Source: Planctomycetota bacterium (lineage in GTDB: Bacteria; Planctomycetota; UBA1135; UBA2386). Taken from it: a stretch of DNA of 51,328 bases. The notes beneath the pieces are model-generated. The model was not told the DNA's origin, searched no databases, and was given only the letters and a program-made list of their open reading frames with translations. Made by a program: the position numbers and the translations under genes. Numbering within the stretch: the first letter of the stretch is position 1; the number at the start of each line of letters is the position of its first letter. Location of the stretch: assembly GCA_044351865.1 (NCBI GenBank), contig JBILEY010000002.1, positions 1 through 51,328 of the forward strand, given 5' to 3'. Of the stretch, positions 6,065 through 25,418 are shown piece by piece.

Positions 6065-6921
6065 GAGGTGGTGGCGTTCGCCAGTCGGTAGATGCGGGCG
6101 GCGTTGCCGCCGAACAGCAGTTCGCGCGTGCCCGCGGGCAGTAGCTCAGCCCAGTCGGCGACGAGCGTGTGTACCGCCGCGTGGTCGCGCGCGGCGAGCA
6201 AGCAGACCGGCCAATCGGAGCCGAACATCACGCGGTGTTCGCCGAACGCGTCGAGTGCGCGGTCGAGGTACCAGCGCAGGTCGTCGGCGCTCCAGCCGTG
6301 CCAGTCGGCTTCGGTGACGAGGCCGCTGAGCTTGCAGGCGACGTGCGGCGACGCGGCGACGCGGCAGAACGCGCGTTCCCACTCCTCGCGCTCGCCGCGC
6401 GCGATGTCGGGCTTGCCGAGATGGTCGAGCACGAACGGCTGGTCCGGCAGCGCCTCGACGAAGTCCGCCGCGGCGTCGAGCTGGCGCGCGTAGACGAGCA
6501 CGTCGTAGACCAGTTCGTGGCGCGCCAGCGTGCGCACGCCGGCGCGGAAGTCGCGGCGGTAGAGGAAGTCGTCGGCTTCGGCCTGCACGACGTGGCGCAG
6601 GCCGACGAGCTTCGGCTCGCGCGCGAGGGCCGCGACCCGATCGCGCGCATCGGGTGTGCACAGGTCGGCCCAGCCGACGACGCCGCGCACGAACGGGTGC
6701 TCGCGGGCGAGTTCGAGCAGGAAGCGGTTCTCCTCGTCGCTGCAGCGCGCCTGCACGGCGATGCAGCCGTCGAAGCCGTTCTTCGTCAGCTCGGGCTGCA
6801 GGTCCGCGGGCAGGAAGTCGCGCGCGAGGCGCTGCATGCGGGCGTCGATCCAGCCGTACTCCTGCGGGCTGTAGTGCCAGAAGTGCTGGTGGGCGTCGAT
6901 CCGCACGAGGGGCGGGATCAT
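6061..6921 (-). CDS. Amidohydrolase-2 family protein (metal-dependent hydrolase, sugar-lactonase-like)
   Basis: Track ORF, 286 aa. N-terminal IDAHQHFW metal-binding HxH block and C-terminal FGSDWP block, both typical of the PF04909-type TIM-barrel hydrolases. Confidence 0.85.
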   Translation of the reverse strand: MIPPLVRIDAHQHFWHYSPQEYGWIDARMQRLARDFLPADLQPELTKNGFDGCIAVQARCSDEENRFLLELAREHPFVRGVVGWADLCTPDARDRVAALAREPKLVGLRHVVQAEADDFLYRRDFRAGVRTLARHELVYDVLVYARQLDAAADFVEALPDQPFVLDHLGKPDIARGEREEWERAFCRVAASPHVACKLSGLVTEADWHGWSADDLRWYLDRALDAFGEHRVMFGSDWPVCLLAARDHAAVHTLVADWAELLPAGTRELLFGGNAARIYRLANATTS

Positions 6922-6975
6922 GAAGGCGCTGTGCTGTCGCGCAAGTGCGCGGTCGGGCTATGCTCGCCGCCGCCC

Positions 6976-8688
6976 ATGACTGCGACCAACTTCCGGACCG
7001 AGAACAACACGCTGCGCAAGCTGCTCGGCAATGGGCTCACCTATCGCGTCCCGCAGTTCCAGCGCGACTACAGCTGGTCGGAGCAGGAGTGGGAAGACCT
7101 GTGGCAGGACCTGCTCGGCACTCTGCGCGACGACGGCGAGCCGGCCCACTACATGGGCTACCTCGTCCTGCAGTCCTCGGACGATCGCGTTTTCGACGTC
7201 ATCGACGGACAGCAACGATTGACGACCGTCAGCGTGCTGGTTCTGGCGGTGTTGAAGGGGCTGCAGCGTTTGGTCGACGCAGGCATCGACGCCGCGAGCA
7301 ATCGCCAGCGCATGGACCAGATCCGTGGTACCTACCTCGGCTACCTGGACCCTGTGACCCTGGTCGCGCGGCCGAAGCTGACGCTGAATCGCAACAACAA
7401 CAGCTATTGGCAGAGTCATGTCGTTCCGCTCGGAGCGATGCCGCAGCGTGGATTCCGGGCGTCGGAACAGCTGCTGCGTGCGGCGTTCACCTGGTTCGAC
7501 GACAAGGTGAACGGCCTCGTCGCGTCGGAGGTCGACAAAGGCAAGGCTCTGGCGAGCTTCCTGGAGAGGATCAGCGATCGCCTGTTCTTCACGGTCATCA
7601 CCGTCACGGACGAGCTGAACGCCTACAAGGTGTTCGAGACGCTGAACGCGCGTGGCGTGCGGCTGTCCGCCACGGACCTGCTGAAGAACTGGCTGTTCTC
7701 GCTGCTCGCGCGCGACGGGGCCTCCAAGGAAGACGTTGCCGCGCTCGAGGATCGGTGGGAGGCGATGGTCGGCAGGCTCGGCGCCGAGGACTTCCCGGAC
7801 TTCTTGCGTGTGCACTGGAACAGCCGTCGCGAGTTCACGCGGCAGGCGGGCCTGTTCAAGACGATCCGGGCCCAGGTCGCCGATCGCGGCTCGGTGTTCG
7901 CCCTCTTGCGTGAGATGGAGGAGGACCTCGACCACTACCTCGCACTGGTGGAGCCCGAAGGGTCCAGTTGGTCGGAGACGGCGAAGGAGAGCGCGCGCAT
8001 CCTGAAGCTCTTCCGGGTGGAGCGGCCGCACTCCATGCTGATCGCGGCCCGCCGGCGCTTCACACCGAACGTGTTCGAGGACGTGCTCCGCGACTGCTTG
8101 GTCATCTCTTTCCGGGCGAGCGTGATCTGTGGCTTCAGTGCCGGTGAACAGGAGCGCGTCTTCAGCGACGCGGCGCTGGCGATCGCTGCTGGCAAGCTCG
8201 AATCACGGAAGGCGGTGCTCGACCGATTGCGTGCGATCTACCCCGCGGACAAGACCTTTCGAGCAGCGTTCGCGGAGAAGGTGGTCCGGACCACGCAAGC
8301 CCGGAACGCGCGGGTTGTGCGCTACCTGCTATGCAGGATCGAACGGCACGTCGGTGGACGCGCCGAGATCTCGTTCGACAGCGACAGCTTCAACATCGAG
8401 CACGTGCTGCCGCAGAACCCCGGGACCGAGTGGGGGCAGTTCACCGAGGCCGAAGCGGAAGGCCTCGTCTACCGCCTCGGCAACATGACGCTGACGAAGA
8501 GTGGCGACAACGCGGCGATGGGCAATGCCGGTTGGTCGAGCAAGCGCGCGGTCCTCGAGCGCAGTGAGTTCGAGGTCACTCGCCGCATCGCTCGCGAGAA
8601 CGAGTCCTGGGACGCCGGGCGCATCGCGGCCCACCAGGCGTGGCTGGCGACGCAGGCGTTGGCGATCTGGCGCATCGACGGTCTCTGA
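6976..8688 (+). CDS. DUF262/DUF1524 two-domain protein, GmrSD-like type IV (modification-dependent) restriction endonuclease candidate
   Basis: Real part of track ORF 6169..8688, starting at ATG 6976 (MTATNFRTENN); the upstream extension overlaps the amidohydrolase gene. N-terminal domain has the DGQQR motif (VIDGQQRLTT). C-terminal domain has His-Me-finger-like FNIEHVLPQN and LGNMTLT. Visibly lower GC than its neighbours. Confidence 0.8.
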   Translation: MTATNFRTENNTLRKLLGNGLTYRVPQFQRDYSWSEQEWEDLWQDLLGTLRDDGEPAHYMGYLVLQSSDDRVFDVIDGQQRLTTVSVLVLAVLKGLQRLVDAGIDAASNRQRMDQIRGTYLGYLDPVTLVARPKLTLNRNNNSYWQSHVVPLGAMPQRGFRASEQLLRAAFTWFDDKVNGLVASEVDKGKALASFLERISDRLFFTVITVTDELNAYKVFETLNARGVRLSATDLLKNWLFSLLARDGASKEDVAALEDRWEAMVGRLGAEDFPDFLRVHWNSRREFTRQAGLFKTIRAQVADRGSVFALLREMEEDLDHYLALVEPEGSSWSETAKESARILKLFRVERPHSMLIAARRRFTPNVFEDVLRDCLVISFRASVICGFSAGEQERVFSDAALAIAAGKLESRKAVLDRLRAIYPADKTFRAAFAEKVVRTTQARNARVVRYLLCRIERHVGGRAEISFDSDSFNIEHVLPQNPGTEWGQFTEAEAEGLVYRLGNMTLTKSGDNAAMGNAGWSSKRAVLERSEFEVTRRIARENESWDAGRIAAHQAWLATQALAIWRIDGL

Positions 8689-14865: not shown

Positions 14866-15951
14866 ATGAAGTACGCCCTCCTGCTGCTGTTCTCGTCGTT
14901 GCTCGCGTTCCCGGCCGAACTGGCGGCGCAGCCGCTGCCGCCCACGCTGGTGACCGCGACCGTGCCGGTCGGCCCGACCGTCAACGTCGACCGCCCGTTC
15001 CCCGGTGGCATCGGCCGCTACCAGCAGTGGTTCTCGGCGAACAGCCTCGCCACCAACGGCATCGAGATGCCGCGCCGCTTGACCCAGGTCGAGTTCTTCG
15101 CCGGCACGTCGCTGACCAGCACGCCGGCGGTGATCGACTGCGAGTTCCTGATGGGCTACGGCAACGCGACCGGCCTGTTCGGCAACTTCGACAGCAACTA
15201 CGTCGCCGGCACCCAGGTCGTCGTCAAGACGCGCGCGAACGTGCAGCTCAGCGCCGGCGGGCCCGGCGCGGTGGTGATGACGGTGCCGTTCAACGTGCCG
15301 TTCACGTGGGACCGCGTGCGGCCGGTCGTGCTCGAGATCCGCATCTACGGCAACAGCCTCAGCAGCCAGCCCTTCAACTACAACTTCCAGGGCACTTCGA
15401 CGGCGTTCGGCGTGTCCCGCATGTACACGGCTGGCAGTGCGCTGGCACCGTCCGGCTCGCCGCAGACCGGCTTCGGCATGCGCACGCGCTTCACCGGCCG
15501 ACTCGGCGTCAACATCCCCTACGGCGTCGGTTGCGCGGGCGAAGGCGGCATCGTGCCGACCGCCAGCGTCAGCGGCCTCGCGTGGCCGGCGAGCACCTGG
15601 ACGCACACGCTGTCGAACGCCGCGTCGCAGCGCCTGTGCCTGTGGAGCATCGGCGACAGCAAGACCGACATCGGCGGCGTGCCGCTGCCGGTCGACATCG
15701 CGCCGATCTTCGGCGGCAGCGCCTCGAACTGCTTCCTGCGCCACAACGCCGTGTTCTTCGACGCCTTCCTGACCGTCGGCGGCGGCGCGGGTGGCGGCAC
15801 CGCCACCGTCGGTGTGCCGCTGCCGGCGACCACCGGCTACGTCGGCCTGTCGCTGTTCACGCAGTGGGTCGTGCTCGACCCGCTGTCGTCGAACGGGGCG
15901 GTGTCGACGACGTCCGCGCTCGAGAGCATCGTCAGCGTGGTCGGCGGCTGA
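14866..15951 (+). CDS. Secreted protein of unknown function
   Basis: Track ORF, 361 aa. Signal peptide MKYALLLLFSSLLAFPAELAAQ. Normal N/T/S/G/Y/F-rich composition. Followed by a strong hairpin. Confidence 0.7.
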   Translation: MKYALLLLFSSLLAFPAELAAQPLPPTLVTATVPVGPTVNVDRPFPGGIGRYQQWFSANSLATNGIEMPRRLTQVEFFAGTSLTSTPAVIDCEFLMGYGNATGLFGNFDSNYVAGTQVVVKTRANVQLSAGGPGAVVMTVPFNVPFTWDRVRPVVLEIRIYGNSLSSQPFNYNFQGTSTAFGVSRMYTAGSALAPSGSPQTGFGMRTRFTGRLGVNIPYGVGCAGEGGIVPTASVSGLAWPASTWTHTLSNAASQRLCLWSIGDSKTDIGGVPLPVDIAPIFGGSASNCFLRHNAVFFDAFLTVGGGAGGGTATVGVPLPATTGYVGLSLFTQWVVLDPLSSNGAVSTTSALESIVSVVGG

Positions 15952-15980: not shown

Positions 15981-16014
15981 CGGCGCCGCTGCGGTCCTCG
16001 CCGCAGCGGCGCCG
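15981..16014 (+). terminator. Rho-independent terminator candidate
   Basis: 14-bp perfect stem: CGGCGCCGCTGCGG (15981..15994) pairs with CCGCAGCGGCGCCG (16001..16014) around the 6-nt loop TCCTCG. Followed by GCGTCGTTTCC. It starts 30 nt after the stop at 15951. Confidence 0.6.
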
Positions 16015-16084
16015 CGTCGTTTCCGGCCGCCGACGTCCCTCGGGCGATTTGCCGCGATCTGCAGGATTCCGGAAAGCTCTCTCT

Positions 16085-16120
16085 ACTACCGGAGTAGTTG
16101 GCGTCGACTACTGTGGTAGT
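16085..16120. promoter_or_regulatory. Two tandem ACTAC-N4-GTAGT inverted repeats; candidate BlaI-family operators overlapping the promoter/leader of the repressor gene
   Basis: First site: ACTAC 16085..16089 and GTAGT 16094..16098. Second site: ACTAC 16107..16111 and GTAGT 16116..16120. Centres are 22 bp apart. The second site ends 11 nt before the ATG at 16132. Confidence 0.6.
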
Positions 16121-16131
16121 AGTCTGCCGCC

Positions 16132-16524
16132 ATGAAGGGACCACGCAATCTCGGTGACCTGCAGCTCGCCATCCTGCGCACGCTGTGGGATCTCGGCGAA
16201 GCGCCGGTGTCGGCCGTCCACGAAGCGCTCGCCGATCGCCAGCTCGCGCTGACGACGATCGCGACGATGCTGCGCAAGATGGAGGAGAAGGGCCTCGTCT
16301 CGCACACCGAGCTCGGCCGCCAGTTCGTCTATCGCGCCAAGGTCGCACCCGAGCAGGTGCAGAAGAACCTGGTCGGCGACCTGGTGACGAAGCTGTTCGA
16401 CGGCGACCCGCTGGCGCTGGTCAACCACCTGCTGCGCGCCGGCGAGATCGAACTCGGCGAGCTCGACGACCTGCGCCGGCAGGTCGCGGACGCGGAGAAG
16501 AAGCAACGCAAGGAGCGGCCATGA
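16132..16524 (+). CDS. BlaI/MecI/CopY-family winged-helix transcriptional repressor
   Basis: Track ORF, 130 aa. LGDLQLAILRTLWDLGEAPVSAVHEAL...TIATMLRKMEEKGLV is the typical penicillinase-repressor N-terminal domain. No C-terminal Cys cluster. Confidence 0.9.
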   Translation: MKGPRNLGDLQLAILRTLWDLGEAPVSAVHEALADRQLALTTIATMLRKMEEKGLVSHTELGRQFVYRAKVAPEQVQKNLVGDLVTKLFDGDPLALVNHLLRAGEIELGELDDLRRQVADAEKKQRKERP

Positions 16525-17891
16525 ACTCGTTCCTCGACGGCTTCGTCGCCTGGCTGCTGACGTTCGCGCTGCATTCGACGTGCGCGCTCGGGGGTGCGCT
16601 GCTGCTGACGCTGCTGCTGCGCCGTCGTGCGCTGGGCGCGCAGGAAGCGGCGCTGCGCTGGTCGCTGTGGGCCGCACTGCTGAGTGCGACGCTGCAGGTC
16701 GCGGTGCTCGGTTCGCCGTGGTCGGTCGGCGACCTCGGTCGTGACGTTCCCGCTCCCGTGCCAGCGGCGACGCCGTCCCCGGCCCCGGAGCCGCTGCAGG
16801 TCATGGTCGCGACCGCGCCGCCGGCATCGGCCCCGATCGTCGTCGACGCGGTCGAGGAAGGACTCGACTGGCGCAGCCTGCTCGGTGCGTGTGCGCTGCT
16901 CGCCGCCGGTGGTGGCCTGGTCTGGTTGTGGTGCGTGCAGTCGCGCTTGCGCACGCTGCTGGCGGCGCGACGGCCGGAGACCGATCCGCGCGTGCTGACG
17001 CTGGCGGCGCGCGCCGCCCGCGGGCTCGGCCTGCAGCAGTCCCCGCACCTGAGCCGCTGCCCACGCATCGCCACACCGATCGCGTTCGGCTGGCTGCGGC
17101 CCGAGGTCTGCCTGCCCGAGCGCGTCGACGATCTCGACGATGCGTCGCTGCGCGCGATGCTGGCGCACGAACTGGCGCACCTGCGTCGCTGCGATCCGGC
17201 GTGGATGTGGGGTGGTGCGGTGCTGCAGGCGCTGTTCCCCTGGCAGCCGCTGCTGCTGGTCGTGCGCCGCCGTTGGGCCCAGCTGGTCGAACTGCAGTGC
17301 GACGCGGTCGCCGCGCACCACGCCGGTCCGACCGCCGTCGCGCGTTGCCTGCTCGACGTCGCCGAATGGCTGCGTCCGGACACGCAGCAGCCGCTCGGCG
17401 CGCTCGGCATGGCGGCGCGGCCGTCGGCGTTGCGCGTGCGCGTCGAGACGGCGCTGCGCGGCGATGCGTGCGCCGAGCCGGATGCGCGCCGAGTGCACCT
17501 CGCCGGTGGCCTCGCCGTCGGTTTGCTGGTGTTCGCGGCCCCAGGGCTCGCGACCGTGCCGGCCGGCGACGAGCCGCTGCCCGTCGTCGATCGCTTCGAC
17601 GCGCCGGCGACCGAGAGCGTCGAAGACCGCTTCGCGGCGCCGCCCCCGGCTACAGGCGCGGACGTGTCGCCGGTGGTGCAGCTGCTGGCGGAACTGACCG
17701 CCGAACAGCGCGAGCTGCAGCAGGAGGCCGCCGACCTGCAGGCCTCGCTCGCGCTCGCCCCCGAACCCGAACTGCGCGACCTGCAGACGCTCCTGGTGGA
17801 GCGTCTGCGCCGTCTGGAGACGCAGCGGCAGCGCCTGAGCGCGCTGCTGGCCGCGCGTGCGAAGGAATCCCGAGCCAACGAAACCAGGTAG
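16521..17891 (+). CDS. M56-family (BlaR1-like) membrane zinc metalloprotease lacking a penicillin-binding sensor domain; coiled-coil C-terminus
   Basis: In-frame ATG 16521 inside track ORF 16185..17891; ATGA overlap with the repressor stop. N-terminal TM helices. HEXXH motif HELAHLRRCD. C-terminal heptad-like QLLAELTAEQRELQQEAADLQ...LRRLETQRQRLSALL. Confidence 0.85.
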   Translation: MNSFLDGFVAWLLTFALHSTCALGGALLLTLLLRRRALGAQEAALRWSLWAALLSATLQVAVLGSPWSVGDLGRDVPAPVPAATPSPAPEPLQVMVATAPPASAPIVVDAVEEGLDWRSLLGACALLAAGGGLVWLWCVQSRLRTLLAARRPETDPRVLTLAARAARGLGLQQSPHLSRCPRIATPIAFGWLRPEVCLPERVDDLDDASLRAMLAHELAHLRRCDPAWMWGGAVLQALFPWQPLLLVVRRRWAQLVELQCDAVAAHHAGPTAVARCLLDVAEWLRPDTQQPLGALGMAARPSALRVRVETALRGDACAEPDARRVHLAGGLAVGLLVFAAPGLATVPAGDEPLPVVDRFDAPATESVEDRFAAPPPATGADVSPVVQLLAELTAEQRELQQEAADLQASLALAPEPELRDLQTLLVERLRRLETQRQRLSALLAARAKESRANETR

Positions 17892-17905
17892 TCCCGAGGA
17901 GAACC

Positions 17906-19843
17906 ATGACCCCATCGATCCTGATCCGTGTCGCCACCGCCCTGATGGTCGGTGCGACGTTCCTGCCGGCGCAGTCGAAGCCGTCTGCCCAAGGTGGCGG
18001 CCCCGCCAAGGCGCGGGCCGAAGCCCAGAGCGCCGAGGACAAGGCTCAGGTCCGCCTGGCCGAGGTCATGGCGATGCTGCAGGACGAGGCGCTGACGCCA
18101 GCGCAGCGCGCCGAGGCGACGAAGAAGCTCGAAGAGGTCATGGCCGCGCTCGCCAGCGAGAAGATGGCGACGGCCAAGGCCGGTCAGGAGCCGAAGGTCG
18201 TGCGCAAGGTCGAGCGCAAGCTCGGCAAGAACGGCGAGGTCGTCGAGGAGACGGTGACCTCGAGCAGCAGCAGCTCGAACGCCACTCGCGACTCGCAGTC
18301 GTCGAGCTCCAGTTCGAGTGACAAGCAGTCGTCCAGCGACAAGAAGTCGGCGAGCGACGAGAAGTCGGCCAAGTCCGCAGACGGCAAGTCGTGGAAGGCC
18401 GGCAGCAAGGCCGAAGCCGACGACGGTGGGGGCAAGGCCGAAGGCGGCGAAGACAAGCCGCGGCGGCTGCGGATGCGCTGGTCGGGCGCTGCGCCCGCGA
18501 GCGAACCGCAGGAACCGGCGCCGGCGACGGCGCCAGAGGCCAAGAAGCCGCCGAAGGCGCCGCGTGCGCCGAAGGCTCCGAAGGCGGCTGTCGCGCCCGC
18601 GGAACCCGCCGAGCCGGTCGAGGTTCGCGTGGTCGAGTTGGCGCCTGGGCAGTTCCACGTAGTGCACGGGGAAGGCGGCGAGCCGCTGCTGCTGAGCACC
18701 GAACCCGGCGAGGTCGTCGAGCTGCCGCAGCTGGTGGAGCTGCGGGCCGAGTTCGAGAAGCTGACACCGCGGATCCTGGAGCAGGTGCGCGTGGCGCTGC
18801 CCGAGGGTCTCGGTGAGGGCTCGGAAGCGCTCCGCATCGCTCGCCTCGAGCTGGAGAAGGTGCGCGGCCAGCTGGGCACCGAGATGCACGAAGCGATGGA
18901 GGGGGCGCGCGAAGAGCTGGAGCTCGCGCGCGTCGAGCAGGGCGAAGCGAGGAAGCAGGCTCGGGTCGAGATGCTGCGCTACCGCGACAGCTTGCAGCGG
19001 CACGAAGACGGCAAGCGCGCCCACGCCGGAGCGCTGCGTTCGCACGAACAAGCGAAGCGCGCGCACGACGAAGCGCTGCGAGTGCACGACGAAGCGAAGC
19101 GCGCCCACGACGAGGCGCTGCGAGTGCACGACGAAGCGAAGCGCGCGCACGACGAAGCGCTGCGCAGCCACGAAGAGGCGGCGCGTGCGCACGCCGAGGC
19201 GATGGCTGCGGAGCGCGCGGTGCAGGACGAAGCGCGTGGTCCGCGCGGCCGGCGGGTGGTCGTCGATCGCGCCAGGGGCCAGCGCGGCGTCGCGGATCGC
19301 CAGTCCGACGATCGCCAGTCGGTCGAGCGCGTCTACGAAGTGCGCACGCGCAGCGTCGAAGGCCAGGACGACGAGATCCGCCGCCTGATCGACGAGATGC
19401 GCGGCGAGATGCAGGAGATCCGTTCGCTGATGCAGGAACTGCGCGAACGCGCCGACCAAGCACACGAGCGTCGCACCGGCCGCGCTGGGCGTTCGGGCAA
19501 CAGCCTGCTCGGTGGCCAGCGGCCGTCCGGCTCGTTCCCGGCGTCGGCGGAAGGTCGCGCCGTCGGCACCAGTCCGTTCGGTGCGACGTCGCAGCCCACC
19601 TGGCTGGCGCCGGCCGCGCCGGGCAGCACCTTCGGCTCGCAGCCGGTTCCGGGCCTGCCGCCGGCCCCGCCCGCTCCGCCGGTGCCGGGCGACGCCGGCG
19701 TCGGCGCGCTGTCGCCGCTCGAGACGCGCGGCGTGCCGGTGCTGCAGGGCCTGCCGGTGCTCGGCAACCTGTTCACGACGCGCACGGCTCCCGCTCCGGC
19801 CTCGACGCTGCCGCCCGTCCAGACGCAGCCGCTCGGTCGCTGA
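17906..19843 (+). CDS. Secreted low-complexity/coiled-coil protein with a His-heptad array and a secretin-like C-terminal motif
   Basis: In-frame ATG 17906 inside track ORF 16889..19843, preceded by GAGGAG. Signal-like MTPSILIRVATALMVGATFLPAQS. Ser-rich tract, KAPRAPKAPK tract, long charged helices, then a Pro/Gly-rich tail. Confidence 0.7.
   Translation: MTPSILIRVATALMVGATFLPAQSKPSAQGGGPAKARAEAQSAEDKAQVRLAEVMAMLQDEALTPAQRAEATKKLEEVMAALASEKMATAKAGQEPKVVRKVERKLGKNGEVVEETVTSSSSSSNATRDSQSSSSSSSDKQSSSDKKSASDEKSAKSADGKSWKAGSKAEADDGGGKAEGGEDKPRRLRMRWSGAAPASEPQEPAPATAPEAKKPPKAPRAPKAPKAAVAPAEPAEPVEVRVVELAPGQFHVVHGEGGEPLLLSTEPGEVVELPQLVELRAEFEKLTPRILEQVRVALPEGLGEGSEALRIARLELEKVRGQLGTEMHEAMEGAREELELARVEQGEARKQARVEMLRYRDSLQRHEDGKRAHAGALRSHEQAKRAHDEALRVHDEAKRAHDEALRVHDEAKRAHDEALRSHEEAARAHAEAMAAERAVQDEARGPRGRRVVVDRARGQRGVADRQSDDRQSVERVYEVRTRSVEGQDDEIRRLIDEMRGEMQEIRSLMQELRERADQAHERRTGRAGRSGNSLLGGQRPSGSFPASAEGRAVGTSPFGATSQPTWLAPAAPGSTFGSQPVPGLPPAPPAPPVPGDAGVGALSPLETRGVPVLQGLPVLGNLFTTRTAPAPASTLPPVQTQPLGR
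19001..19210 (+). repeat. Ten consecutive 21-bp (7-aa) units, each beginning with a His codon, inside the CDS
   Basis: Units: HEDGKRA, HAGALRS, HEQAKRA, HDEALRV, HDEAKRA, HDEALRV, HDEAKRA, HDEALRS, HEEAARA, HAEAMAA. The central units form near-identical 42-bp DNA repeats (19064..19147). Confidence 0.85.
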
Positions 19844-19864: not shown

Positions 19865-20737
19865 CTACTTGCCGTCGCCGAGCGCCGCGACCTCGACGTC
19901 GGTGAGGTCGCGCCCGAACGGGTCGTGCTCGTCGGCTCGCAGTCGCCGCAGCACGACGCGCGCGAACACGTTCGCCGGATTGGTTGCGACCGCGCGTTCG
20001 AGCCACTCGATCGCCTGCGCGCGCTTCTTCTGCAGGGAGCACGCCATCGCCGCGAACACCGACGGCCGCTCGTCGTCGTGCAGCACCTTGGCGGCGAACT
20101 CGAAGTGCGCGAGCGCCTTCTCGGCATCGTGGCCGAACCACTTCGGCGCCAGCAGCTGGCGCAAGCCGATGGCGACGTGCACCCGCGCATCGTCCTGGCC
20201 GCGTTCGCCGGCGCGTTGCAGCGCCGCGTGGATGCGGCCGTTCCACTGCAGCGCGCTGGCGATGCCGGTGATGCGCTGGCTCAACAGGGCCGCTTCGATG
20301 CGCAGCAGGTCGGCGCTGTCGTCACCGCGCTGCTGCGCCTTCGCCACCGCATCGAGGCCGAGTCGCACGTCGTCGGCGATCGCGGCCGGCAGTTCGCTCC
20401 AGGTCGGTTCGCCGACGCGCAGGCCGCGGCGGTGCGAACGCGCCAGCGCGCGCTCGAGGTGGGCATCGGCGAGCAGGTGCCACGCGGCTGCGTCGTCGGC
20501 CTTGGCGGCAGCGGCGGCGCGCGTCAGCTCGGCGACCACGGCGTCGAGGGCTTCGGTCGTGCAGGTGCGGCGGGCGGCGACCACCGCGGCGCGCGGGCCG
20601 GCGCCCGTGGCGGCGCTCGGCGTCGGCACCGTCGGCACCGCCAGTTCTTCGTGGGCCCGGGCCCCGAGCAGGATCCACGTCGTGCCGGCGAGAGCGAACG
20701 TGGCGGCGACGCACAGCGCGGGGACGAGTCGGGTCAT
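19865..20737 (-). CDS. Membrane-anchored helical-repeat (TPR/Sel1-like) protein of unknown function
   Basis: Real part of track ORF 19865..21919, starting at Met (cat 20735..20737, MTRLVPALCVAATFALAGTTWILLG). ATGA overlap with the glcF stop at 20734. Confidence 0.65.
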   Translation of the reverse strand: MTRLVPALCVAATFALAGTTWILLGARAHEELAVPTVPTPSAATGAGPRAAVVAARRTCTTEALDAVVAELTRAAAAAKADDAAAWHLLADAHLERALARSHRRGLRVGEPTWSELPAAIADDVRLGLDAVAKAQQRGDDSADLLRIEAALLSQRITGIASALQWNGRIHAALQRAGERGQDDARVHVAIGLRQLLAPKWFGHDAEKALAHFEFAAKVLHDDERPSVFAAMACSLQKKRAQAIEWLERAVATNPANVFARVVLRRLRADEHDPFGRDLTDVEVAALGDGK

Positions 20738-22020
20738 GAGGGCGGCAGCAGCAGCTCGATCGGGTGGCGGACCTGCGCCTTGTGGCCGGCCCGGCGCAGG
20801 TGGCTGTCGATCTGCAGCATGCAGCCGGGATTGCCGGTCACGACGAGATCGACGTCCGCGCGCGCGAGGCTTTCGACCTTGCGCCGACCTATTTCGTCGG
20901 CGAGCTCCGGTTGCAGCAGGTTGTAGATGCCGGCCGAGCCGCAGCAGTCCTCGGGCCGCTCGTGCGCGACCAGTTCGAGCCCCGGCACCTGCGCCAGCAG
21001 CTGTCGCGGCTGCGAACGCACGCCCTGGCCGTGGCACAGGTGGCAAGGGTCGTCGTAGGCGGCCTTGGCCCGCAGTGCGCGCGGCTTCGCCGTCAGCCCG
21101 TGCTCGGCGAGGAACTCGCTGACGTCGCGGCACTTCTTGCCGAACGTCGCCCCGCCCTCGTCGCCGAGCAGGTGGCCGTACTCCTTCATCGCGCAGCCAC
21201 AGCCGGCCGAGTTGTTGACGACGACGTCGGCTTGGGCGAACGCGGCGACGTTGGCGCGCGCCAGTTCGCGGGCCTGGTCCGGCATGCCCGCGTGCACCAG
21301 CAGGGCACCGCAGCAGCGCTGCGCCGCCGGCACGTCGACGTCGAAGCCGTTCTGCAGCAGCACCTGCAAGGTCGCGCGGTTGACGCGGCCGAACACCGGC
21401 TCCATCACGCAGCCGGTGAACAGTGCCACGCGCACGCCGCGGCGCGCGACACCCGGCGGCGGTGTGTGCAGGCCGGTCGGCAGCGGCCGCCGTTCGGCCG
21501 CCGGCGGCACCGGCGGCGCGATCGACGCCATCGCCTTCGGCACGAGCCGCAAGCGCGTCCCGAGCCAGCGCAGGCCGAGCACTTCGGCGGTGCGCAGCAA
21601 CGCGAACGCGAAGCGCAGGCGACCTTGCCGCGCCACCACGTGCCACAGCAGGAAGCGCACCAGCCAGCCCGCGACGCCCTTCTTCGGCTGCTGGCGTTCG
21701 AGTTCGGCGCGTGTCGTCTCGAGCACTTCGCCGTAACGCACGCCCGACGGGCACGCCGTCTCGCAGGCGCGGCAGTCGAGGCAGCGGTCGAGGAACGGCC
21801 GGATCGCCTGCGGATCCTGCACGCGCCCTTCGGCCAGCGCGCGCATCAGGTAGATGCGGCCGCGCGGCGAATCGGCTTCGACGCCGAGCACCTGGTAGGT
21901 GGGGCAGGTCGGCAGGCACAAGCCGCAGTGCACGCAGTCGAGCGTGCGCGTGTAGGCCGAGACGCCGCCGTGGGCGGCGACGGTGCCGGGGCCTGGGCAG
22001 GAATCAGACGAGGCGGCCAT
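20734..22020 (-). CDS. glcF: Glycolate oxidase iron-sulfur subunit
   Basis: Track ORF, 428 aa. Two ferredoxin-type clusters (CVHCGLCLPTCP and CLDCRACETACP), then two CCG-type Cys-rich domains (NSAGCGC, GNPGCMLQ). Confidence 0.85.
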   Translation of the reverse strand: MAASSDSCPGPGTVAAHGGVSAYTRTLDCVHCGLCLPTCPTYQVLGVEADSPRGRIYLMRALAEGRVQDPQAIRPFLDRCLDCRACETACPSGVRYGEVLETTRAELERQQPKKGVAGWLVRFLLWHVVARQGRLRFAFALLRTAEVLGLRWLGTRLRLVPKAMASIAPPVPPAAERRPLPTGLHTPPPGVARRGVRVALFTGCVMEPVFGRVNRATLQVLLQNGFDVDVPAAQRCCGALLVHAGMPDQARELARANVAAFAQADVVVNNSAGCGCAMKEYGHLLGDEGGATFGKKCRDVSEFLAEHGLTAKPRALRAKAAYDDPCHLCHGQGVRSQPRQLLAQVPGLELVAHERPEDCCGSAGIYNLLQPELADEIGRRKVESLARADVDLVVTGNPGCMLQIDSHLRRAGHKAQVRHPIELLLPPS

Positions 22021-23059
22021 GCGGATCGAGGGCGAGCTTCAGTTCGCGGGTGAGACGGGACACACCGGGATCGCCGGCGGTGGCGAGTCCGCGGCGCGGT
22101 GCGGCGGCGACGACGACGCGCACCGCGAGCGGGATCTTCGGCAGCGCAGCGAGGGCACGGTCGCTGTCGGCGGCGTTCGCGAACGCCACTTCGCAGCGGT
22201 TGCCGCCGTGCCACAGCAGCGCTTGCGCCGATGGCGCAGCAGCGAGCAGTGCTGGCAACTGCGCCGGCAGAACCAGCGTCGCCAGCACTTCGGCGTCGCT
22301 GGCGGCGGCGACGTGGTCGCGCCAGTTCGACGCGCTCGCGACGAGGCCGTTCGCTTGCAGCGTCGTGCGCACGAACGCCGCGCGCCCGACGATCCGTCCG
22401 CGCACTTCACAGCCGCCGTCGCGCGTCCACGCCAGCTGCAGCACGGCGAGGCCGGTCGGCAGCTGGCGCAGGCGCTGCACCAGCGCGATCGCGTCGGCGA
22501 GCGAGAGGCCGCCGTTGGCGAACCACTGCTCGGCGCGCGGCCTCGGCTTCAACCGCAGGTGCAAACGCGTCAACGCGAACAGCCGCCCTTCGCTGCCGAC
22601 CGCGAGCTTGTGCACGTCGAAGCCGGCGACGCTCTTCACCACGCGCGCGCCCGAACGGAAGAACGTGCCGTCGGCGAGCACGGCCTCGGCGCCGAGCAGC
22701 AGCGTGCGCGGGCTCTGTCCGCCGGGTGCTGCAGCGCCGAGCGGATCCGCGGCGAACAGGCCACCGAGCGTGCCTTCGCCCGGGCACGGCAGTTCGAGCC
22801 CGAGCGGCTGCAGGGCCGCGTCGAGGTCCGTGCGCAGCACGCCGCAGTCGACGGAGCACGTCTGGTCCGGGCCGTCCAGGCGCTCGATGGTCGCGAGGCC
22901 CGTCAGTCGTACGTGCAGGCTGTCGGCCGGTGCGGCCGGCAGGTGATGCTGCCGCGTGCCGCTGCCGACGAGGCGCACGGAGCCGCGGCTCGCGCGCAGC
23001 AGGTCCTGCAGTTCGGCGCACGAACGCGGCGTGGCGATCGACGAGGACGCAGCGCTCAT
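22004..23059 (-). CDS. glcE: Glycolate oxidase FAD-binding subunit
   Basis: Track ORF 22004..23158, trimmed to Met34 (cat 23057..23059), which gives an ATGA overlap with the glcD stop. FAD-binding PCMH-like pattern (VRLVGSGTRQ, KSVAGFDVHKL). Sits between glcD and glcF. Confidence 0.7.
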   Translation of the reverse strand: MSAASSSIATPRSCAELQDLLRASRGSVRLVGSGTRQHHLPAAPADSLHVRLTGLATIERLDGPDQTCSVDCGVLRTDLDAALQPLGLELPCPGEGTLGGLFAADPLGAAAPGGQSPRTLLLGAEAVLADGTFFRSGARVVKSVAGFDVHKLAVGSEGRLFALTRLHLRLKPRPRAEQWFANGGLSLADAIALVQRLRQLPTGLAVLQLAWTRDGGCEVRGRIVGRAAFVRTTLQANGLVASASNWRDHVAAASDAEVLATLVLPAQLPALLAAAPSAQALLWHGGNRCEVAFANAADSDRALAALPKIPLAVRVVVAAAPRRGLATAGDPGVSRLTRELKLALDPHGRLV

Positions 23060-24510
23060 CGCCGTTCCTCGTGGTCGAGCACCTTGGCGACCATATGCGG
23101 CCACTTCGCCACTTCGGCGCACGCACCGCGCGACGGCAGCACCTTGCCGGGATTGCACAGGCCGCTCGGGTTGAACACCGCGCGCACGCGCTGCATCACC
23201 GCGAGGTCAGAGTCGCCGTACATCATGCGCACGTGGTCGAGCTTCTCGGTGCCGATGCCGTGCTCGCCCGAGATGCTGCCGCCGAGGTCGACGCACAGCT
23301 GCAGGATCTCGCGGCCGGCGGCGACCGTGCGGCGCGTCTGCTCGGGGTCGCGCCCGTCGAAGCTGATGTTCGGGTGCAGGTTGCCGTCGCCGGCGTGGAA
23401 CACGTTCGTCATCACCACGCCGTGCTTCGCCCCGATCGCGGTGATGCCGGCGAGCGCTTCCTCGAGGCGAGTGCGCGGCACCACTCCGTCGAGCACGTAG
23501 AGGTCGGTGTTCAATCGCCCCATCGCGCCGAACGCACCCTTGCGGCCCTTCCACAGCCGTTTGCGCTCGGCGTAGTCGGTGGCCTCCTCGACGCGCAAGG
23601 CACCCTGCTGCGCGAAGAACGCACGCACCTCGGCCGCCTCTTCGGCGAGCACGTCGAGCGGGCCGTCGAGTTCGACCAGCAGCACGGCGGCGGCGTCTTC
23701 GGGATACCCGGCGCGATAGACCGACGCTTCGACGGCGCGGATCGTCGCCTGGTCGAGGATCTCGAGCGCTGCGGGCACGAGGCCGGCGGCGACGATGTCG
23801 CTGACCGTGCGGCACGCGGCGGTCATCGACGCGAACGCGCCGAGCAGCGTGCGCACACCCTGCTGGTCGCGGCACAGGCGCACGGTGATCTCGGTGGCGA
23901 TGCCGAACGTGCCCTCGCTGCCGCAGAAGACGGCCAGCAGGTCGGGTTCGCCCGGCCCGCGCGGGCCCGCCGGGCCGCCGAGGTGCAGCAGTTCGCCGTC
24001 GGGCAGAACGACCACGGCGCCGAGCACGTGGTCCTGGGTCATGCCGTACTTGAAGCAGTGCGGGCCACCGCTGTTCTCGGCCAGGTTGCCGCCGATCGTG
24101 CACACGGACTGGCTGCTCGGATCGGGCGCGTAGTGCAGGCCGTGGTGGTGCACCGCCGTCGTCAGGTCGAGGTTGACGACGCCCGGCTGCACGACCGCGT
24201 AGAGATCGTCGGTCGACACGTGCAGCACCTTGCGCATGCGCGCGAGGTCGATCACCACCGCGTCGCCGCCGGCGGTCGGGCCGCCGCTGAGGCAGGTGCC
24301 CGCACCACGCGGCACGAACGGCACCTTCGCCGCGTGCAGCAGGCGCACGATCGCCTGCACTTCCTGCGTCGACTCCGGCAGCACCACGGCGCGCGGCCGC
24401 GAACGGTGCACGGTGAAGCCGTCGCACTCCCAGGCCAGCAGCGCGTCGGGCGAGGTCAGCACGCGTTGCGGGCCGAGCAGGGCGGTGAGCTGCAGGTCGA
24501 GCGAGGCCAT
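23056..24510 (-). CDS. glcD: Glycolate oxidase subunit GlcD (FAD-linked oxidase)
   Basis: Real part of track ORF 23056..25407. Start chosen at MASLDLQLTALLG (24510); an alternative Met lies 6 codons upstream (24528). Motifs: PRGAGTCLSGG, TIGGNLAENSGGPHCFKYG, GSEGTFGI, HAGDGNLHP, SGEHGIG. Confidence 0.9.
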   Translation of the reverse strand: MASLDLQLTALLGPQRVLTSPDALLAWECDGFTVHRSRPRAVVLPESTQEVQAIVRLLHAAKVPFVPRGAGTCLSGGPTAGGDAVVIDLARMRKVLHVSTDDLYAVVQPGVVNLDLTTAVHHHGLHYAPDPSSQSVCTIGGNLAENSGGPHCFKYGMTQDHVLGAVVVLPDGELLHLGGPAGPRGPGEPDLLAVFCGSEGTFGIATEITVRLCRDQQGVRTLLGAFASMTAACRTVSDIVAAGLVPAALEILDQATIRAVEASVYRAGYPEDAAAVLLVELDGPLDVLAEEAAEVRAFFAQQGALRVEEATDYAERKRLWKGRKGAFGAMGRLNTDLYVLDGVVPRTRLEEALAGITAIGAKHGVVMTNVFHAGDGNLHPNISFDGRDPEQTRRTVAAGREILQLCVDLGGSISGEHGIGTEKLDHVRMMYGDSDLAVMQRVRAVFNPSGLCNPGKVLPSRGACAEVAKWPHMVAKVLDHEERR

Positions 24511-24618
24511 CGGCGGGTGCGGCAGCATAGCGAGGCGCGCTGCGGGCTCGGCACGCTGCCTCGGCGTGCATTTGGGGTCGTTGGCGTGTTCGCCGAGCAC
24601 CTCTAGCATGCGACCCGC

Positions 24619-25287
24619 ATGCGCCTTCCCACGCTGCTGGTGTTGCCGTTGCTCGCTGCCTGCCAGGCTTCGCCCGCACCCGCACCCGCTCCCGCGCCTG
24701 CACCCACTCCCGCGCCAGCGGCGTCGGCGGCGCCTGCCGCCCAGAATCCGGTGCGCCTGACCGTCGTGCAGCGCGGGCGTGAGAAGGTGCCCGGCACGGA
24801 AGGTCGCCTCTGGATCGAGGTCGACGACGTGACCGCGGGCCAGGTGCTGGTCAAGATCGTCGATCGCATGACGCGCGAGGACGCGCTGCCGCAGCGCTCG
24901 ATGCGATTTGGCGACGAGGCCTGGTTCCCGCTCGGTGGCGGCACGCGCGCGGTGGTCGTGCTGCGGCTGGCGAACCTGCTGATCGGTGAGGACTTCGTCG
25001 AGTTCGCCTTCGGCGAGCCGGGGGCGATGGCGAACGAGCAGATCGAGTCGGTGCTGCGGCGGGTCGCGAACTCGAAGATGACGTTCGTGCGCGAAGGTAC
25101 GGAGCACGACGCTGTTGCGACCGCACTGTGGCTGCGGCAGCAGTGGTTGACGGCAGGCGACGTCAGGACACTGGCGGCGTTCCTGGCGCGCTTCGTCGGC
25201 TCCGAAGGTGGCCCCGTGCCGGTGTGGTCGGTGCGGCTGCCGGGCGGCCGTCTGCTGCCGCTGGTCGAGTGGCTGAGCGGGTCGTGA
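24619..25287 (+). CDS. Lipoprotein of unknown function (C-terminal part resembles DUF5329-type proteins; low certainty)
   Basis: Track ORF, 222 aa. Lipobox LLAAC, then an (Ala-Pro)n linker. Normal composition afterwards. Confidence 0.7.
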   Translation: MRLPTLLVLPLLAACQASPAPAPAPAPAPTPAPAASAAPAAQNPVRLTVVQRGREKVPGTEGRLWIEVDDVTAGQVLVKIVDRMTREDALPQRSMRFGDEAWFPLGGGTRAVVVLRLANLLIGEDFVEFAFGEPGAMANEQIESVLRRVANSKMTFVREGTEHDAVATALWLRQQWLTAGDVRTLAAFLARFVGSEGGPVPVWSVRLPGGRLLPLVEWLSGS

Positions 25288-25418
25288 CCGAGCGCGTGGC
25301 GGGGGCCGTGGCGCCTCGGCCCGAGTCACCGATGCCAGCGGTCGTTCCGATGCGGCAAGAGCGCTGCCCTCGACCGTCAAGCAATCGGGCTGCGGATGCC
25401 GATGCACGTGCCGGTCGC

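What the first reader, a model, noticed from the sequence alone, without database searches (positions are those of the whole stretch)
16132..19843. BlaI-type repressor, sensor-less M56 protease and a secreted coiled-coil protein form a compact three-gene module
Seen in sequence:
- The repressor and the M56 protease (HELAH motif) are coupled by an ATGA overlap (16521..16524).
- A third gene starts 15 nt after the protease stop, behind a GAGGAG RBS.
- The M56 protein has the TM and HEXXH part of BlaR1/MecR1. Where the extracellular penicillin-binding sensor should be, it has only a charged coiled coil.
- The third protein (645 aa) has a signal peptide, Ser-rich and KAP-rich low-complexity tracts, long charged helices, a His-heptad array and a Pro/Gly-rich tail.

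Inference: the signal sensed is not a beta-lactam. The secreted coiled-coil protein may be the sensor partner, or the regulated cargo, of the protease/repressor pair. I know of no characterised system with this architecture.
Basis: partly seen in the sequence, partly recalled or inferred. Interest (0 to 1): 0.65.

Follow-up and report, generated by a model that had tools for sequence, protein, structure and literature searches.

The report
Self-repressed BlaI/M56 operon with exported partner
This is a three-gene operon from an uncultured freshwater Planctomycetota lineage: a BlaI-type repressor, a BlaR1-like membrane protease without a penicillin sensor, and a fast-evolving exported helical protein that always follows it. 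It is a new variant of a signalling family now known to be mostly unrelated to beta-lactams.

Summary
Three co-oriented genes are packed tightly:
- blaI-like, 16132..16524
- M56 protease, 16521..17891, with HELAH and an ATGA overlap onto blaI
- a 645-aa exported protein ("g3"), 17906..19843, 14 nt after the M56 stop and behind GAGGAG

The M56 protein has the BlaR1 membrane and zinc-protease fold. Outside the membrane it carries only a two-helix hairpin.

New here: two conserved palindromes (ACTAC-N4-GTAGT) lie 12-47 nt upstream of blaI. They are the only two in 51 kb. This points to one self-repressed operon.

g3 belongs to a small orphan family: about 60 clusters among 1.84 billion representative proteins, all from one Planctomycetota lineage. 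It follows this M56 subtype in all 24 loci where the contig covers both positions. Only its signal peptide, an N-terminal helical hairpin and one C-terminal helix are conserved.

The His-heptad array is a recent 42-bp tandem repeat. The secretin-like motif is sporadic. Neither defines the family.

Sensor-less M56 proteins are the commonest M56 architecture (PMC13492132). C. difficile CenIR, with its adjacent exported orphan protein, is a characterised analogue.

Whether g3 is a periplasmic co-sensor or feedback partner (my preference) or simply the regulated output is unresolved.

Verdict: new variant of a known kind, moderate interest.

The parts
15981..16014 (+). GC-rich hairpin after the upstream gene p361. 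It is terminator-like and marks the 5' boundary of the operon.
   Evidence: Arms of 14 nt, 100% complementary. Fold energy -58.9 kcal/mol, z = -4.9 against shuffles.
16085..16098 (+). Operator-like palindrome 1, ACTACCGGAGTAGT (TAC-N4-GTA core)
   Evidence: One of only 2 matches in 51 kb, against 0.05 expected. Identical or near-identical in every orthologous locus that includes the blaI upstream region. The same palindrome class lies upstream of distant blaI/M56 pairs.
16107..16120 (+). Operator-like palindrome 2, ACTACTGTGGTAGT, 22 nt after box 1 and ending 11 nt before the blaI ATG
16132..16524 (+). BlaI/MecI/CopY-family winged-helix repressor, 130 aa, with no cysteine
   Evidence: PF03965 E = 8.6e-25. 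Best solved relative is M. tuberculosis BlaI 2g9w, aligned over residues 6-123. Orthologues are 75-85% identical.
16521..17891 (+). M56 (BlaR1-like) membrane zinc protease, 456 aa, with ATGA overlap onto blaI
   Evidence: PF05569 E = 1.7e-20. AF2 pLDDT 83 with four TM helices. Foldseek top hits are S. aureus BlaR1 8exs, 8exp, 8exq and 8exr.
17166..17180 (+). HELAH zinc-binding motif (residues 216-220). A conserved downstream Glu257, Cys260 and Asp261 lie at 17289..17303.
   Evidence: H216, E217, H220, E257, C260 and D261 are invariant in 63 orthologues.
17670..17885 (+). Extracytoplasmic two-helix hairpin tail of M56 (residues 384-455), following a disordered linker (353-381)
   Evidence: AF2 helices 384-412 and 416-455, pLDDT about 86-90. 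E395, L399, E402, R428, L429, R438 and L439 are at least 90% conserved. Only generic coiled-coil matches in the PDB.
17896..17901 (+). GAGGAG ribosome-binding site of g3
   Evidence: Read directly.
17906..19843 (+). g3: exported helical and disordered protein, 645 aa, member of a lineage-restricted orphan family
17906..17977 (+). g3 signal peptide (residues 1-24, ending LPAQS)
   Evidence: Conserved in the family; A22 and Q23 are nearly invariant. Predicted as helix 3-18.
18032..18181 (+). g3 conserved N-terminal helical hairpin (residues 43-92; RLAEVMAML..LTPAQR..KKLEEV)
   Evidence: Alignment A2 of 34 members has 51% mean column identity. AF2 helices 43-59 and 65-92.
18824..19234 (+). g3 long central helix (residues 307-443). 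Its sequence is variable between orthologues.
   Evidence: AF2 pLDDT above 90. Poorly conserved in A1 and A4.
19000..19201 (+). 42-bp tandem repeat, 4.8 copies, encoding the His-heptad array (KRAHDEALRVHDEA)n
   Evidence: TRF score 241, 83% matches. Present only in the window, its partial copy P0002, and in shorter form in the 76%-identical P0001.
19352..19480 (+). g3 conserved C-terminal helix (residues 483-525; core EIRRLIDEMRGEMQEIRSLM at 19373..19432), preceded by an acidic patch
   Evidence: R492, E497, M498, R499, E501, M502, E504, I505, R506 and L508 are invariant in A1. The A6 HMM hits every orthologous locus and no distant M56 locus. AF2 pLDDT about 90.
19724..19789 (+). Secretin-like short motif (GVPVLQGLPVLGNLF) in the disordered tail. 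It is sporadic, not family-defining.
   Evidence: PF00263 at 13.7 bits against a cut-off of 27.5. A similar motif occurs in only about 5 of about 70 members.

Best explanation
This is a self-repressed, three-gene envelope-signalling operon of the BlaI/BlaR (BlaIR) family that has nothing to do with beta-lactams.

Shown:
- The gene content, topology and fold.
- Two conserved TAC-N4-GTA palindromes directly upstream of blaI.
- Strict linkage of g3 to this M56 subtype.

Inferred mechanism:
- A BlaI dimer sits on the two palindromes, which are two helical turns apart and lie between the promoter region and the ATG. This holds transcription of blaI, M56 and g3 low.
- A cue in the periplasm alters the state of the M56 dimer through its small coiled-coil hairpin. 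The cytoplasmic HELAH zinc protease then cleaves BlaI, and the operon is derepressed, together with any unlinked targets.
- g3 is exported by its signal peptide. Its two conserved helical modules (N-terminal hairpin and C-terminal helix) are joined by a freely evolving helical and disordered spacer. I propose that these modules dock onto the M56 hairpin, so that g3 acts as detachable co-sensor and negative-feedback element. This resembles CpxP acting on CpxA or RseB acting on RseA. Titration, unfolding, degradation or metal loading of g3 would release M56.
- Because g3 is made from the operon it controls, induction would restore it and reset the switch.
For: - Family, fold and topology are established.
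- The operator pair is unique in the window and conserved in all orthologous loci. The same palindrome class, often the classical TACAnnTGTA, lies upstream of 11 of 76 distant blaI/M56 loci, against roughly 0.4-0.8 chance matches expected by my own estimate from sequence length (PMC7253601 for the box).
- No + strand terminator and no sigma-70-like promoter is found inside the operon.
- The gaps are 4-nt overlap and 14 nt here. The M56-to-g3 gap is 5-47 nt in orthologues.
- Contigs from RNA-labelled freshwater libraries bridge both gene junctions.
- HMMs of the g3 C-helix and of the M56 tail hit exactly the same 24 loci and none of 76 distant M56 loci.
- The linkage survives where flanks change (L012, L017, L020, L022-L024).
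- g3's conservation is confined to two short helices, while length (about 300-670 aa) and composition drift. That pattern fits docking modules rather than an enzyme or a structural domain.
- A two-helix tail is too small to be a ligand-binding sensor on its own.
Against: - No interaction was tested or modelled.
- The co-occurrence of tail and g3 is confounded by shared ancestry, because nearly all loci come from one lineage whose wider neighbourhood is also syntenic.
- hhalign finds no relationship between the tail and the g3 modules, so there is no homotypic-pairing argument.
- In other sensor-less BlaIR systems the downstream gene looks like an output. Examples are CDR_0474 in C. difficile (PMC13492132), HtrA-like proteases in 19 of 76 distant loci, and MacB/FtsX-like permeases.
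- The BlaI cleavage-site residues (N-F in S. aureus) are not clearly conserved.
- The RNA evidence comes from libraries of ambiguous type and from related populations at 90-95% identity.
Confidence: 0.42

Rival explanations
1. g3 is simply the regulated output (cargo). The BlaI/M56 pair senses an envelope cue through M56 alone, and derepression delivers an exported structural or protective protein to the periplasm or cell surface. g3 has no role in signalling.
For: - The closest characterised analogue works this way: CenI represses the adjacent exported orphan gene cdr_0474 about 500-fold (PMC13492132).
- Distant sensor-less M56 loci are followed by obvious effectors: HtrA-like Trypsin_2+PDZ proteases in 19 of 76, and MacB/FtsX-like permeases.
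- The only operator sites in 51 kb control this operon itself.
Against: - g3 sits 14 nt behind M56 inside the operon. In contrast, cdr_0474 is 215 bp away and the HtrA genes are 50-130 nt away.
- Nothing in g3 except two short helices is conserved, which is odd for an effector.
- A system whose only local output is itself needs either unlinked targets or an internal role for g3.
Confidence: 0.33
2. The module is a periplasmic metal-ion (or pH) sensor or buffer. Low-complexity His, Cys/Glu or Met/His tracts in g3 bind metal, and the loaded or unloaded state is relayed to M56, or g3 is an inducible metal sponge.
For: - His clusters (at least 4 His in 15 residues) occur in 9 of 75 family members, against about 1.7 expected from shuffled sequences.
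- Cys/Glu tracts occur in L017 and P0003-P0008. His tracts lie next to the C-helix in L022-L024, P0060 and P0066.
- The architecturally analogous L030 protein carries CGDENCEGCEEC and MGHSMAPMPMM tracts.
- The best NCBIfam hit of the repressor is CopY/TcrY, although below its cut-off.
Against: - Most members have ordinary or low His content (0-2%), and some have none.
- The window's array is a recent tandem repeat.
- The conserved Met residues of the C-helix exchange with Leu or Val in distant members, so they behave as core residues and not as ligands.
- The repressor has no Cys and lacks the CopY CxCx4CxC hook.
Confidence: 0.12
3. g3 is functionally unrelated to BlaI/M56 and is adjacent only through inherited gene order in one lineage.
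For: The whole neighbourhood (PilT, p361, blaI, M56, g3, a conserved ~290-aa protein, GlcFED) is syntenic in most loci. p361 is equally co-distributed.
Against: - The 14-nt spacing has no internal terminator or promoter.
- The link persists where flanks differ.
- L030 has quite different flanks (PckA-like upstream, no p361) yet keeps BlaI, an M56 with a coiled-coil tail, an overlapping exported helical protein and the same operator.
Confidence: 0.06

Closest known systems
CenIR plus CDR_0474 of Clostridioides difficile (PMC13492132, 2026)
   Same: A BlaI-like repressor sits upstream of an M56 protease that lacks the transpeptidase sensor and has a short C-terminal region with no known domain. 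An exported, lineage-restricted protein of unknown function is encoded immediately downstream in the same orientation. There is no link to beta-lactams.
   Different: - cdr_0474 is 215 bp downstream with its own promoter and encodes 136 aa. Here the third gene is 14 nt downstream in the operon and encodes 645 aa of helix and disorder.
- There is no sequence similarity between the two exported proteins.
- One system is in a Gram-positive firmicute, the other in a diderm Planctomycetota.
- Regulation by the repressor was shown experimentally for CenIR and is only inferred here.
Canonical BlaR1/BlaI and MecR1/MecI of Staphylococcus and Bacillus (8EXP-8EXT; PMC9834060)
   Same: Both have the same repressor family and the same four-TM zinc-protease fold, with HEXXH and a downstream Glu. 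The repressor gene lies next to the protease gene, and operators have TAC-N4-GTA symmetry.
   Different: - There is no penicillin-binding sensor domain. NCBIfam blaR1_generic scores 36 bits against a cut-off of 400.
- Gene order is repressor first.
- The operon carries an exported helical protein instead of regulating a beta-lactamase or PBP2a gene.
Mycobacterium tuberculosis BlaI/BlaR (Rv1846c/Rv1845c; 2G9W)
   Same: This is the closest solved repressor. Its M56 partner is also described as lacking the beta-lactam-binding domain (PMC13492132).
   Different: No exported third gene is described for it. Its regulon includes blaC and ATP-synthase-linked genes.
Periplasmic feedback modulators of envelope sensors (CpxP with CpxA, RseB with RseA, ZraP with ZraS)
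   Same: The proposed logic is the same: an exported helical protein, encoded in the regulon it controls, damps a membrane sensor. This comparison rests on my own knowledge of those systems.
   Different: There is no homology. A profile of the g3 hairpin finds no CpxP, Spy or ZraP relative in PDB or Pfam. The transducer here is an M56 protease, not a kinase or an anti-sigma factor.

Membership tests
BlaI/MecI/CopY repressor family (PF03965) | Full-length Penicillinase_R domain above the curated threshold | tested here: met
   87.8 bits against 22.6, covering residues 7-118 and profile positions 1-113 of 115. Aligns end to end with 2g9w and 1sd4.
BlaI/MecI/CopY repressor family (PF03965) | Inverted-repeat operator with a TAC-N4-GTA core upstream of its own operon | tested here: met
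   Two palindromes at 16085-16098 and 16107-16120, unique in the window and conserved in orthologues. The same class occurs upstream of distant pairs. The box is defined in PMC7253601. Binding itself was not tested.
BlaI/MecI/CopY repressor family (PF03965) | Signal-dependent cleavage site (N-F in S. aureus BlaI, from my own knowledge) in the dimerisation region | tested here: inconclusive
   The aligned segment LALVNHLL has Asn but no Asn-Phe pair in register.
CopY/TcrY copper repressors (TIGR02698) | C-terminal CxCx4CxC metal-binding hook and a score above the equivalog cut-off | tested here: not met
   48.8 bits against 121.95. The 130-aa protein contains no cysteine.
Peptidase M56 (BlaR1/MecR1-like) | M56 domain above threshold with HEXXH and a downstream Glu | tested here: met
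   73.8 bits against 31. H216, E217, H220 and E257 are invariant in 63 orthologues.
Peptidase M56 (BlaR1/MecR1-like) | Four-TM topology with a cytoplasmic protease domain and a BlaR1-like fold | tested here: met
   AF2 helices 2-33, 38-63, 117-147 and 322-339. Foldseek top five hits are S. aureus BlaR1 entries, probability 1.0, with TM-score 0.56 normalised to the TM-plus-protease chain 8exr_A.
Bona fide BlaR1/MecR1 beta-lactam sensor-transducers | C-terminal extracellular penicillin-binding (transpeptidase, PF00905) sensor domain | tested here: not met
   No PF00905 hit. blaR1_generic scores 36.1 bits against 400, matching residues 143-262 only. The tail is a 72-residue helical hairpin.
Non-canonical (CenIR-type) BlaIR systems | blaI-like gene adjacent to an M56 gene lacking a TP domain | tested here: met
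   The class is defined in PMC13492132.
Non-canonical (CenIR-type) BlaIR systems | Repressor controls the adjacent exported-protein gene | not testable with these tools
   Inferred only from the operator position and from the absence of an internal promoter or terminator.
Secretin (PF00263), for g3 | Secretin domain above threshold | tested here: not met
   13.7 bits against 27.5, over 22 residues only. The motif is absent from most orthologues.
CpxP/Spy/ZraP LTXXQ periplasmic proteins, for g3 | Detectable sequence-profile similarity to the family | tested here: not met
   The profile of the N-hairpin (34 sequences) finds no CpxP, Spy or ZraP chain in the PDB at E up to 10. No LTXXQ or Metal_resist family appears among the Pfam families listed for its members.

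The most novel reading that the evidence does not exclude
g3 is the real sensor of a split BlaIR receptor. It would be an exported, long helical tether whose two conserved end-modules clamp the M56 hairpin, and whose variable spacer, often carrying metal-binding-like tracts, reads out a property of the planctomycetal periplasm such as envelope spacing, protein-folding stress or metal load.

More generally, sensor-less M56 proteases would acquire their specificity from separately encoded exported partners of the same structural class as their tails. Here that is coiled coil with coiled coil. In L029 and L031 it is a HEAT-repeat tail with an overlapping exported HEAT-repeat protein.
Probability: 0.25. 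Interest if true: 0.65.

Novelty: new variant of a known kind. Interest (0 to 1): 0.4.

Why it matters
BlaI/BlaR systems are usually taught as beta-lactam resistance switches. A 2026 study reports that about 94% of M56 proteins lack the antibiotic sensor (PMC13492132). How these proteases are triggered is unknown, and no inducing condition could be found even for CenIR.

This operon is a clean, conserved case. The extracytoplasmic part of the protease is reduced to two helices, and an exported protein with only two conserved helices is obligately co-encoded. That makes a direct test possible of whether such systems use a detachable periplasmic partner.

The work also supplies a defined operator (ACTAC-N4-GTAGT) for regulon prediction in an uncultured freshwater Planctomycetota lineage. 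It defines two orphan protein families, g3 and p361.

If g3 is only cargo, the finding is a routine extra member of a large family.

Tried and rejected
1. CpxP/Spy/ZraP homology of g3, prompted by the LTPAQ (LTXXQ-like) turn. Profile searches against PDB and Pfam found nothing. The LTAEQ in the M56 tail is not conserved.
2. g3 as a secretin or secretin partner. The motif is sub-threshold and occurs in about 5 of about 70 members.
3. The His-heptad array as a conserved functional site. It is a 42-bp tandem repeat limited to the closest relatives, and family His content ranges from 0 to about 4% in full-length members.
4. Conserved Met residues of the C-helix as Cu ligands. They exchange with Leu or Val in distant members.
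5. Homology between the M56 tail and the g3 modules. hhalign probabilities were 1.5% and 18%.
6. Homology of the L030 third protein or tail to g3 or the tail. Not significant, so L030 is only an architectural analogue.
7. A Rosetta-stone argument from L035 (M56 fused to WD40) and L072 (M56 followed by an overlapping WD40 ORF). In L072 the M56 ORF stops before TM4, and the next ORF begins with a hydrophobic segment 10 nt upstream of the stop. It is more likely a frameshifted fusion than a split gene, so I did not use it.
8. Search for further operator sites. There are none elsewhere in the 51-kb window or in the flanks of the orthologous loci.
9. Transcript evidence. Contigs bridge both junctions, but the libraries are labelled 'METAGENOMIC RNA-Seq' and match at 90-95% identity. 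One true metatranscriptome covers only the blaI/M56 junction and part of g3. This is suggestive only.
10. No sigma-70-like promoter was found. Promoters of this phylum are not covered by the scan.
11. A linker-fused M56-tail plus g3 model was not attempted.

Full report
**1. Observation**

The window has about 72% GC, and real genes show GC3 near 0.9. Three + strand ORFs fit this pattern.

- The first is 16132..16524 (130 aa).
- The second is 16521..17891 (456 aa). Its ATG is the first three bases of the ATGA at 16521..16524.
- The third is 17906..19843 (645 aa). It lies behind GAGGAG at 17896..17901, with 14 intergenic bases.

Pfam identifies the first protein as Penicillinase_R (87.8 bits). 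It identifies the second as Peptidase_M56 (73.8 bits, nearly the full profile) and finds no other domain. NCBIfam's BlaR1 sensor-transducer model scores 36 bits against a cut-off of 400, and only over the protease core. The third protein has no family. Its only signal is a 22-residue sub-threshold match to a secretin motif.

**2. The protease**

I aligned 63 orthologues and built an AF2 model from them (pLDDT 83). The model shows the following elements.

- TM helices at 2-33, 38-63 and 117-147.
- A disordered, variable loop at 64-116.
- A globular domain at 156-313 carrying HELAH (216-220).
- A fourth TM helix at 322-339.
- A disordered linker at 353-381.
- A two-helix hairpin at 384-412 and 416-455 (pLDDT about 88).

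H216, E217, H220, E257, C260 and D261 are invariant. Foldseek ranks the five S. aureus BlaR1 cryo-EM entries first.

The hairpin has conserved heptad positions: E395, L399, E402, R428, L429, R438 and L439 are at least 90% conserved. It matches only generic coiled coils in the PDB. So this is an M56 protease of BlaR1 fold whose extracytoplasmic part is about 70 helical residues.

**3. The repressor and its operator**

The repressor aligns end to end with M. tuberculosis BlaI (2g9w), with S. aureus BlaI and with the CopR DNA-binding domain. It has no cysteine, so it is not a CopY-type metal-binding repressor.

Between the upstream gene and blaI lie two palindromes. ACTACCGGAGTAGT is at 16085-16098 and ACTACTGTGGTAGT is at 16107-16120, 22 nt apart. 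The second ends 11 nt before the ATG. These are the only two matches to ACTAC-N4-GTAGT in 51 kb, even allowing one mismatch, against 0.05 expected.

Both boxes are kept, nearly base for base, in every orthologous locus that includes this region. The surrounding DNA diverges. Their core, TAC-N4-GTA, has the geometry of the TACAnnTGTA box of the CopR/CopY and BlaI/MecI family (PMC7253601).

In 423 kb of distant blaI/M56 loci the same palindrome occurs 12 times in 11 loci. It always lies upstream of the pair and is often ACTACAnnTGTAGT. By my own estimate from sequence length, fewer than one match is expected by chance.

A strong hairpin follows the upstream gene (15981-16014, z = -4.9). No + strand terminator or sigma-70-like promoter lies inside the three genes, and the next gene downstream is convergent. 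The simplest reading is one autoregulated transcription unit of exactly three genes.

Contigs from RNA-labelled freshwater libraries bridge both gene junctions. However, the library types are ambiguous and the matches are at 90-95% identity.

**4. The third protein**

A word-indexed search of 5.8 billion proteins gave nine relatives. An exhaustive profile search of 1.84 billion representatives gave 60 clusters. All named sources are Planctomycetota MAGs, and the window's own population is found in lake-water metagenomes.

Alignments show which parts are conserved.

- A signal peptide ending ..PAQS.
- A roughly 45-residue helical hairpin, RLAEVIAMLEEDDL(T/S)PEQR..KKLxEI.
- A C-terminal amphipathic helix preceded by an acidic patch, DDxEIRAMIDEMRAEMREIRxLMQxxR.

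Everything between and after these drifts, including Ser-rich tracts, PKAPKAPK spacers, long charged helices and Gly/Pro tails. Lengths range from about 300 to 670 aa. AF2 agrees: a hairpin at 43-92, disorder at 93-270, one 137-residue helix at 307-443, the C-helix at 483-525 and a disordered tail.

The His-heptad array is encoded by a 42-bp tandem repeat of 4.8 copies. It is found only in the closest relatives. The secretin-like motif recurs in about five members.

His clusters are nevertheless enriched across the family (9 of 75 against about 1.7 expected). Cys/Glu tracts recur in several branches. Metal binding by the variable regions therefore stays possible, but it is not a family trait. 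The conserved Met residues of the C-helix exchange with Leu or Val, so they behave as core residues.

**5. Linkage**

Every locus with enough context has blaI, M56 and g3 in this order.

- Logan, NCBI and JGI contigs show it.
- Nine GTDB species representatives show it.
- Distant g3 members P0066 and P0060 show it.
- Three loci chosen through M56 alone show it, and their downstream proteins carry the g3 hallmarks.

HMMs of the g3 C-helix and of the M56 tail hit exactly the same 24 loci. Neither hits any of 76 more distant M56 loci.

Identity to the window is 75-85% for BlaI and 45-65% for M56. For g3, similarity is detectable only in the two modules.

The wider neighbourhood (PilT, p361, the operon, a conserved ~290-aa protein, GlcFED) is also syntenic, so ancestry confounds the argument. 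However, the flanks do change in L012, L017, L020 and L022-L024 while the unit stays intact.

L030 is a 56%-GC contig with unrelated flanks. It still has a BlaI (50% identity), an M56 with a coiled-coil hairpin tail, an ATGA-overlapped exported helical and low-complexity protein, and one ACTACCACGGTAGT box. Its tail and third protein are not demonstrably homologous to those of the window.

**6. Context from other M56 systems**

PMC13492132 reports several relevant points.

- M56 followed by a C-terminal region with no identifiable domain is the commonest of 254 architectures.
- Transpeptidase-bearing BlaR proteins make up about 6%.
- 96% of M56 genes lie within five genes of a blaI-like gene.
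- In C. difficile CenIR the main target is an exported orphan protein encoded 215 bp downstream.

My scan of distant M56 loci shows varied downstream envelope genes.

- HtrA-like Trypsin_2+PDZ proteases follow at 50-130 nt in 19 of 76 loci.
- MacB/FtsX-like permeases follow in others.
- A PSCyt2/PSD1 protein follows an M56-WD40 fusion.
- In L029 and L031 an exported HEAT-repeat protein overlaps the end of an M56 whose own tail is made of HEAT repeats.

A sensor-less M56 with an exported neighbour is therefore a common theme. The specific partner family and the in-operon coupling are what is particular here.

**7. Mechanism**

The following is shown.

- The families, fold and topology.
- The operator-like sites.
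- Operon-like packing.
- Obligate linkage.
- The two-module conservation of g3.

The following is inferred.

- BlaI represses its own operon.
- M56 cleaves BlaI on a periplasmic cue.
- g3 is exported.

For g3 I favour a co-sensor or feedback role, for four reasons.

- It is co-encoded 14 nt behind the sensor.
- Its only constrained parts are two short helices, as expected for docking modules.
- The M56 tail is too small to sense on its own.
- The tail and g3 co-occur.

The cargo model is nearly as likely, given CenIR and the HtrA-type loci. Under autoregulation the two models are not exclusive. A metal-related role is a minority reading. None of these could be discriminated with the tools available. 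Complex prediction and BlaI-cleavage assays would decide between them.

**8. Verdict**

This is a member of the non-canonical BlaIR class with a new, lineage-restricted exported partner family and a defined operator. I rate it a new variant of a known kind, of moderate interest.

Noticed in passing
window 14866..15951 (+): p361 is a 361-aa signal-peptide protein with no Pfam family. It lies directly upstream of blaI in every orthologous locus that has upstream context. It forms its own orphan family with the same Planctomycetota-only distribution (143 hits, 45-99% identity). A strong hairpin separates it from the operon, and it has no operator box of its own. It may be a fourth functional member.
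   Followed up: partly
L046, L054, L056, L057, L061, L063, L070, L071, L074, L077, L084, L086, L088-L093, L103: In 19 of 76 distant M56 loci, from soil, peat and sediment metagenomes, the M56 gene is followed at 50-130 nt by a roughly 505-530-aa HtrA/DegP-like protease (Trypsin_2 plus two PDZ domains; GNSGGP motif). This recurrent blaI-M56-htrA arrangement suggests an envelope protein-quality-control output.
   Followed up: partly
L029:3830-7923 and L031:3272-7557: An M56 protease with a roughly 470-500-residue HEAT-repeat tail is overlapped at its stop codon by a gene for a signal-peptide HEAT-repeat protein. The tail and the exported neighbour are of the same repeat class.
   Followed up: partly
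L030:2850-5994: A 56%-GC contig with unrelated flanks carries one ACTACCACGGTAGT box, a BlaI (50% identity), an M56 with a coiled-coil hairpin tail, and an ATGA-overlapped 395-aa exported protein. That protein has Cys/Glu (CGDENCEGCEEC) and Met/His/Gly (MGHSMAPMPMMGG) tracts reminiscent of metal-binding motifs.
   Followed up: partly
L072:3875-6444 compared with L035:3644-5866: L035 encodes an M56 fused to a WD40 beta-propeller. In L072 the M56 ORF ends before TM4, and an overlapping ORF continues with a hydrophobic segment and a WD40 propeller. This is probably a frameshift or assembly error in a fused gene, not a split sensor.
   Followed up: partly
window 6145..8688 (+): An 847-aa GmrSD-family type IV restriction endonuclease (GmrSD_N plus GmrSD_C). 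It has a roughly 290-residue N-terminal extension without a Pfam match and a slightly lower GC3 (0.84) than its neighbours.
   Followed up: no
window 19865..25407 (-): A conserved ~290-aa protein and glycolate-oxidase-like GlcF, GlcE and GlcD genes lie convergent to the operon. The GlcD-like ORF (23056..25407) is 783 aa, with about 330 N-terminal residues that have no domain match.
   Followed up: no
window 16040..16084 and orthologous loci: A conserved TTTTCC(C)..N..GGAA(G/A)G element lies about 15-60 nt upstream of operator box 1 in all orthologues. It may be the promoter of a non-sigma-70-consensus type.
   Followed up: no
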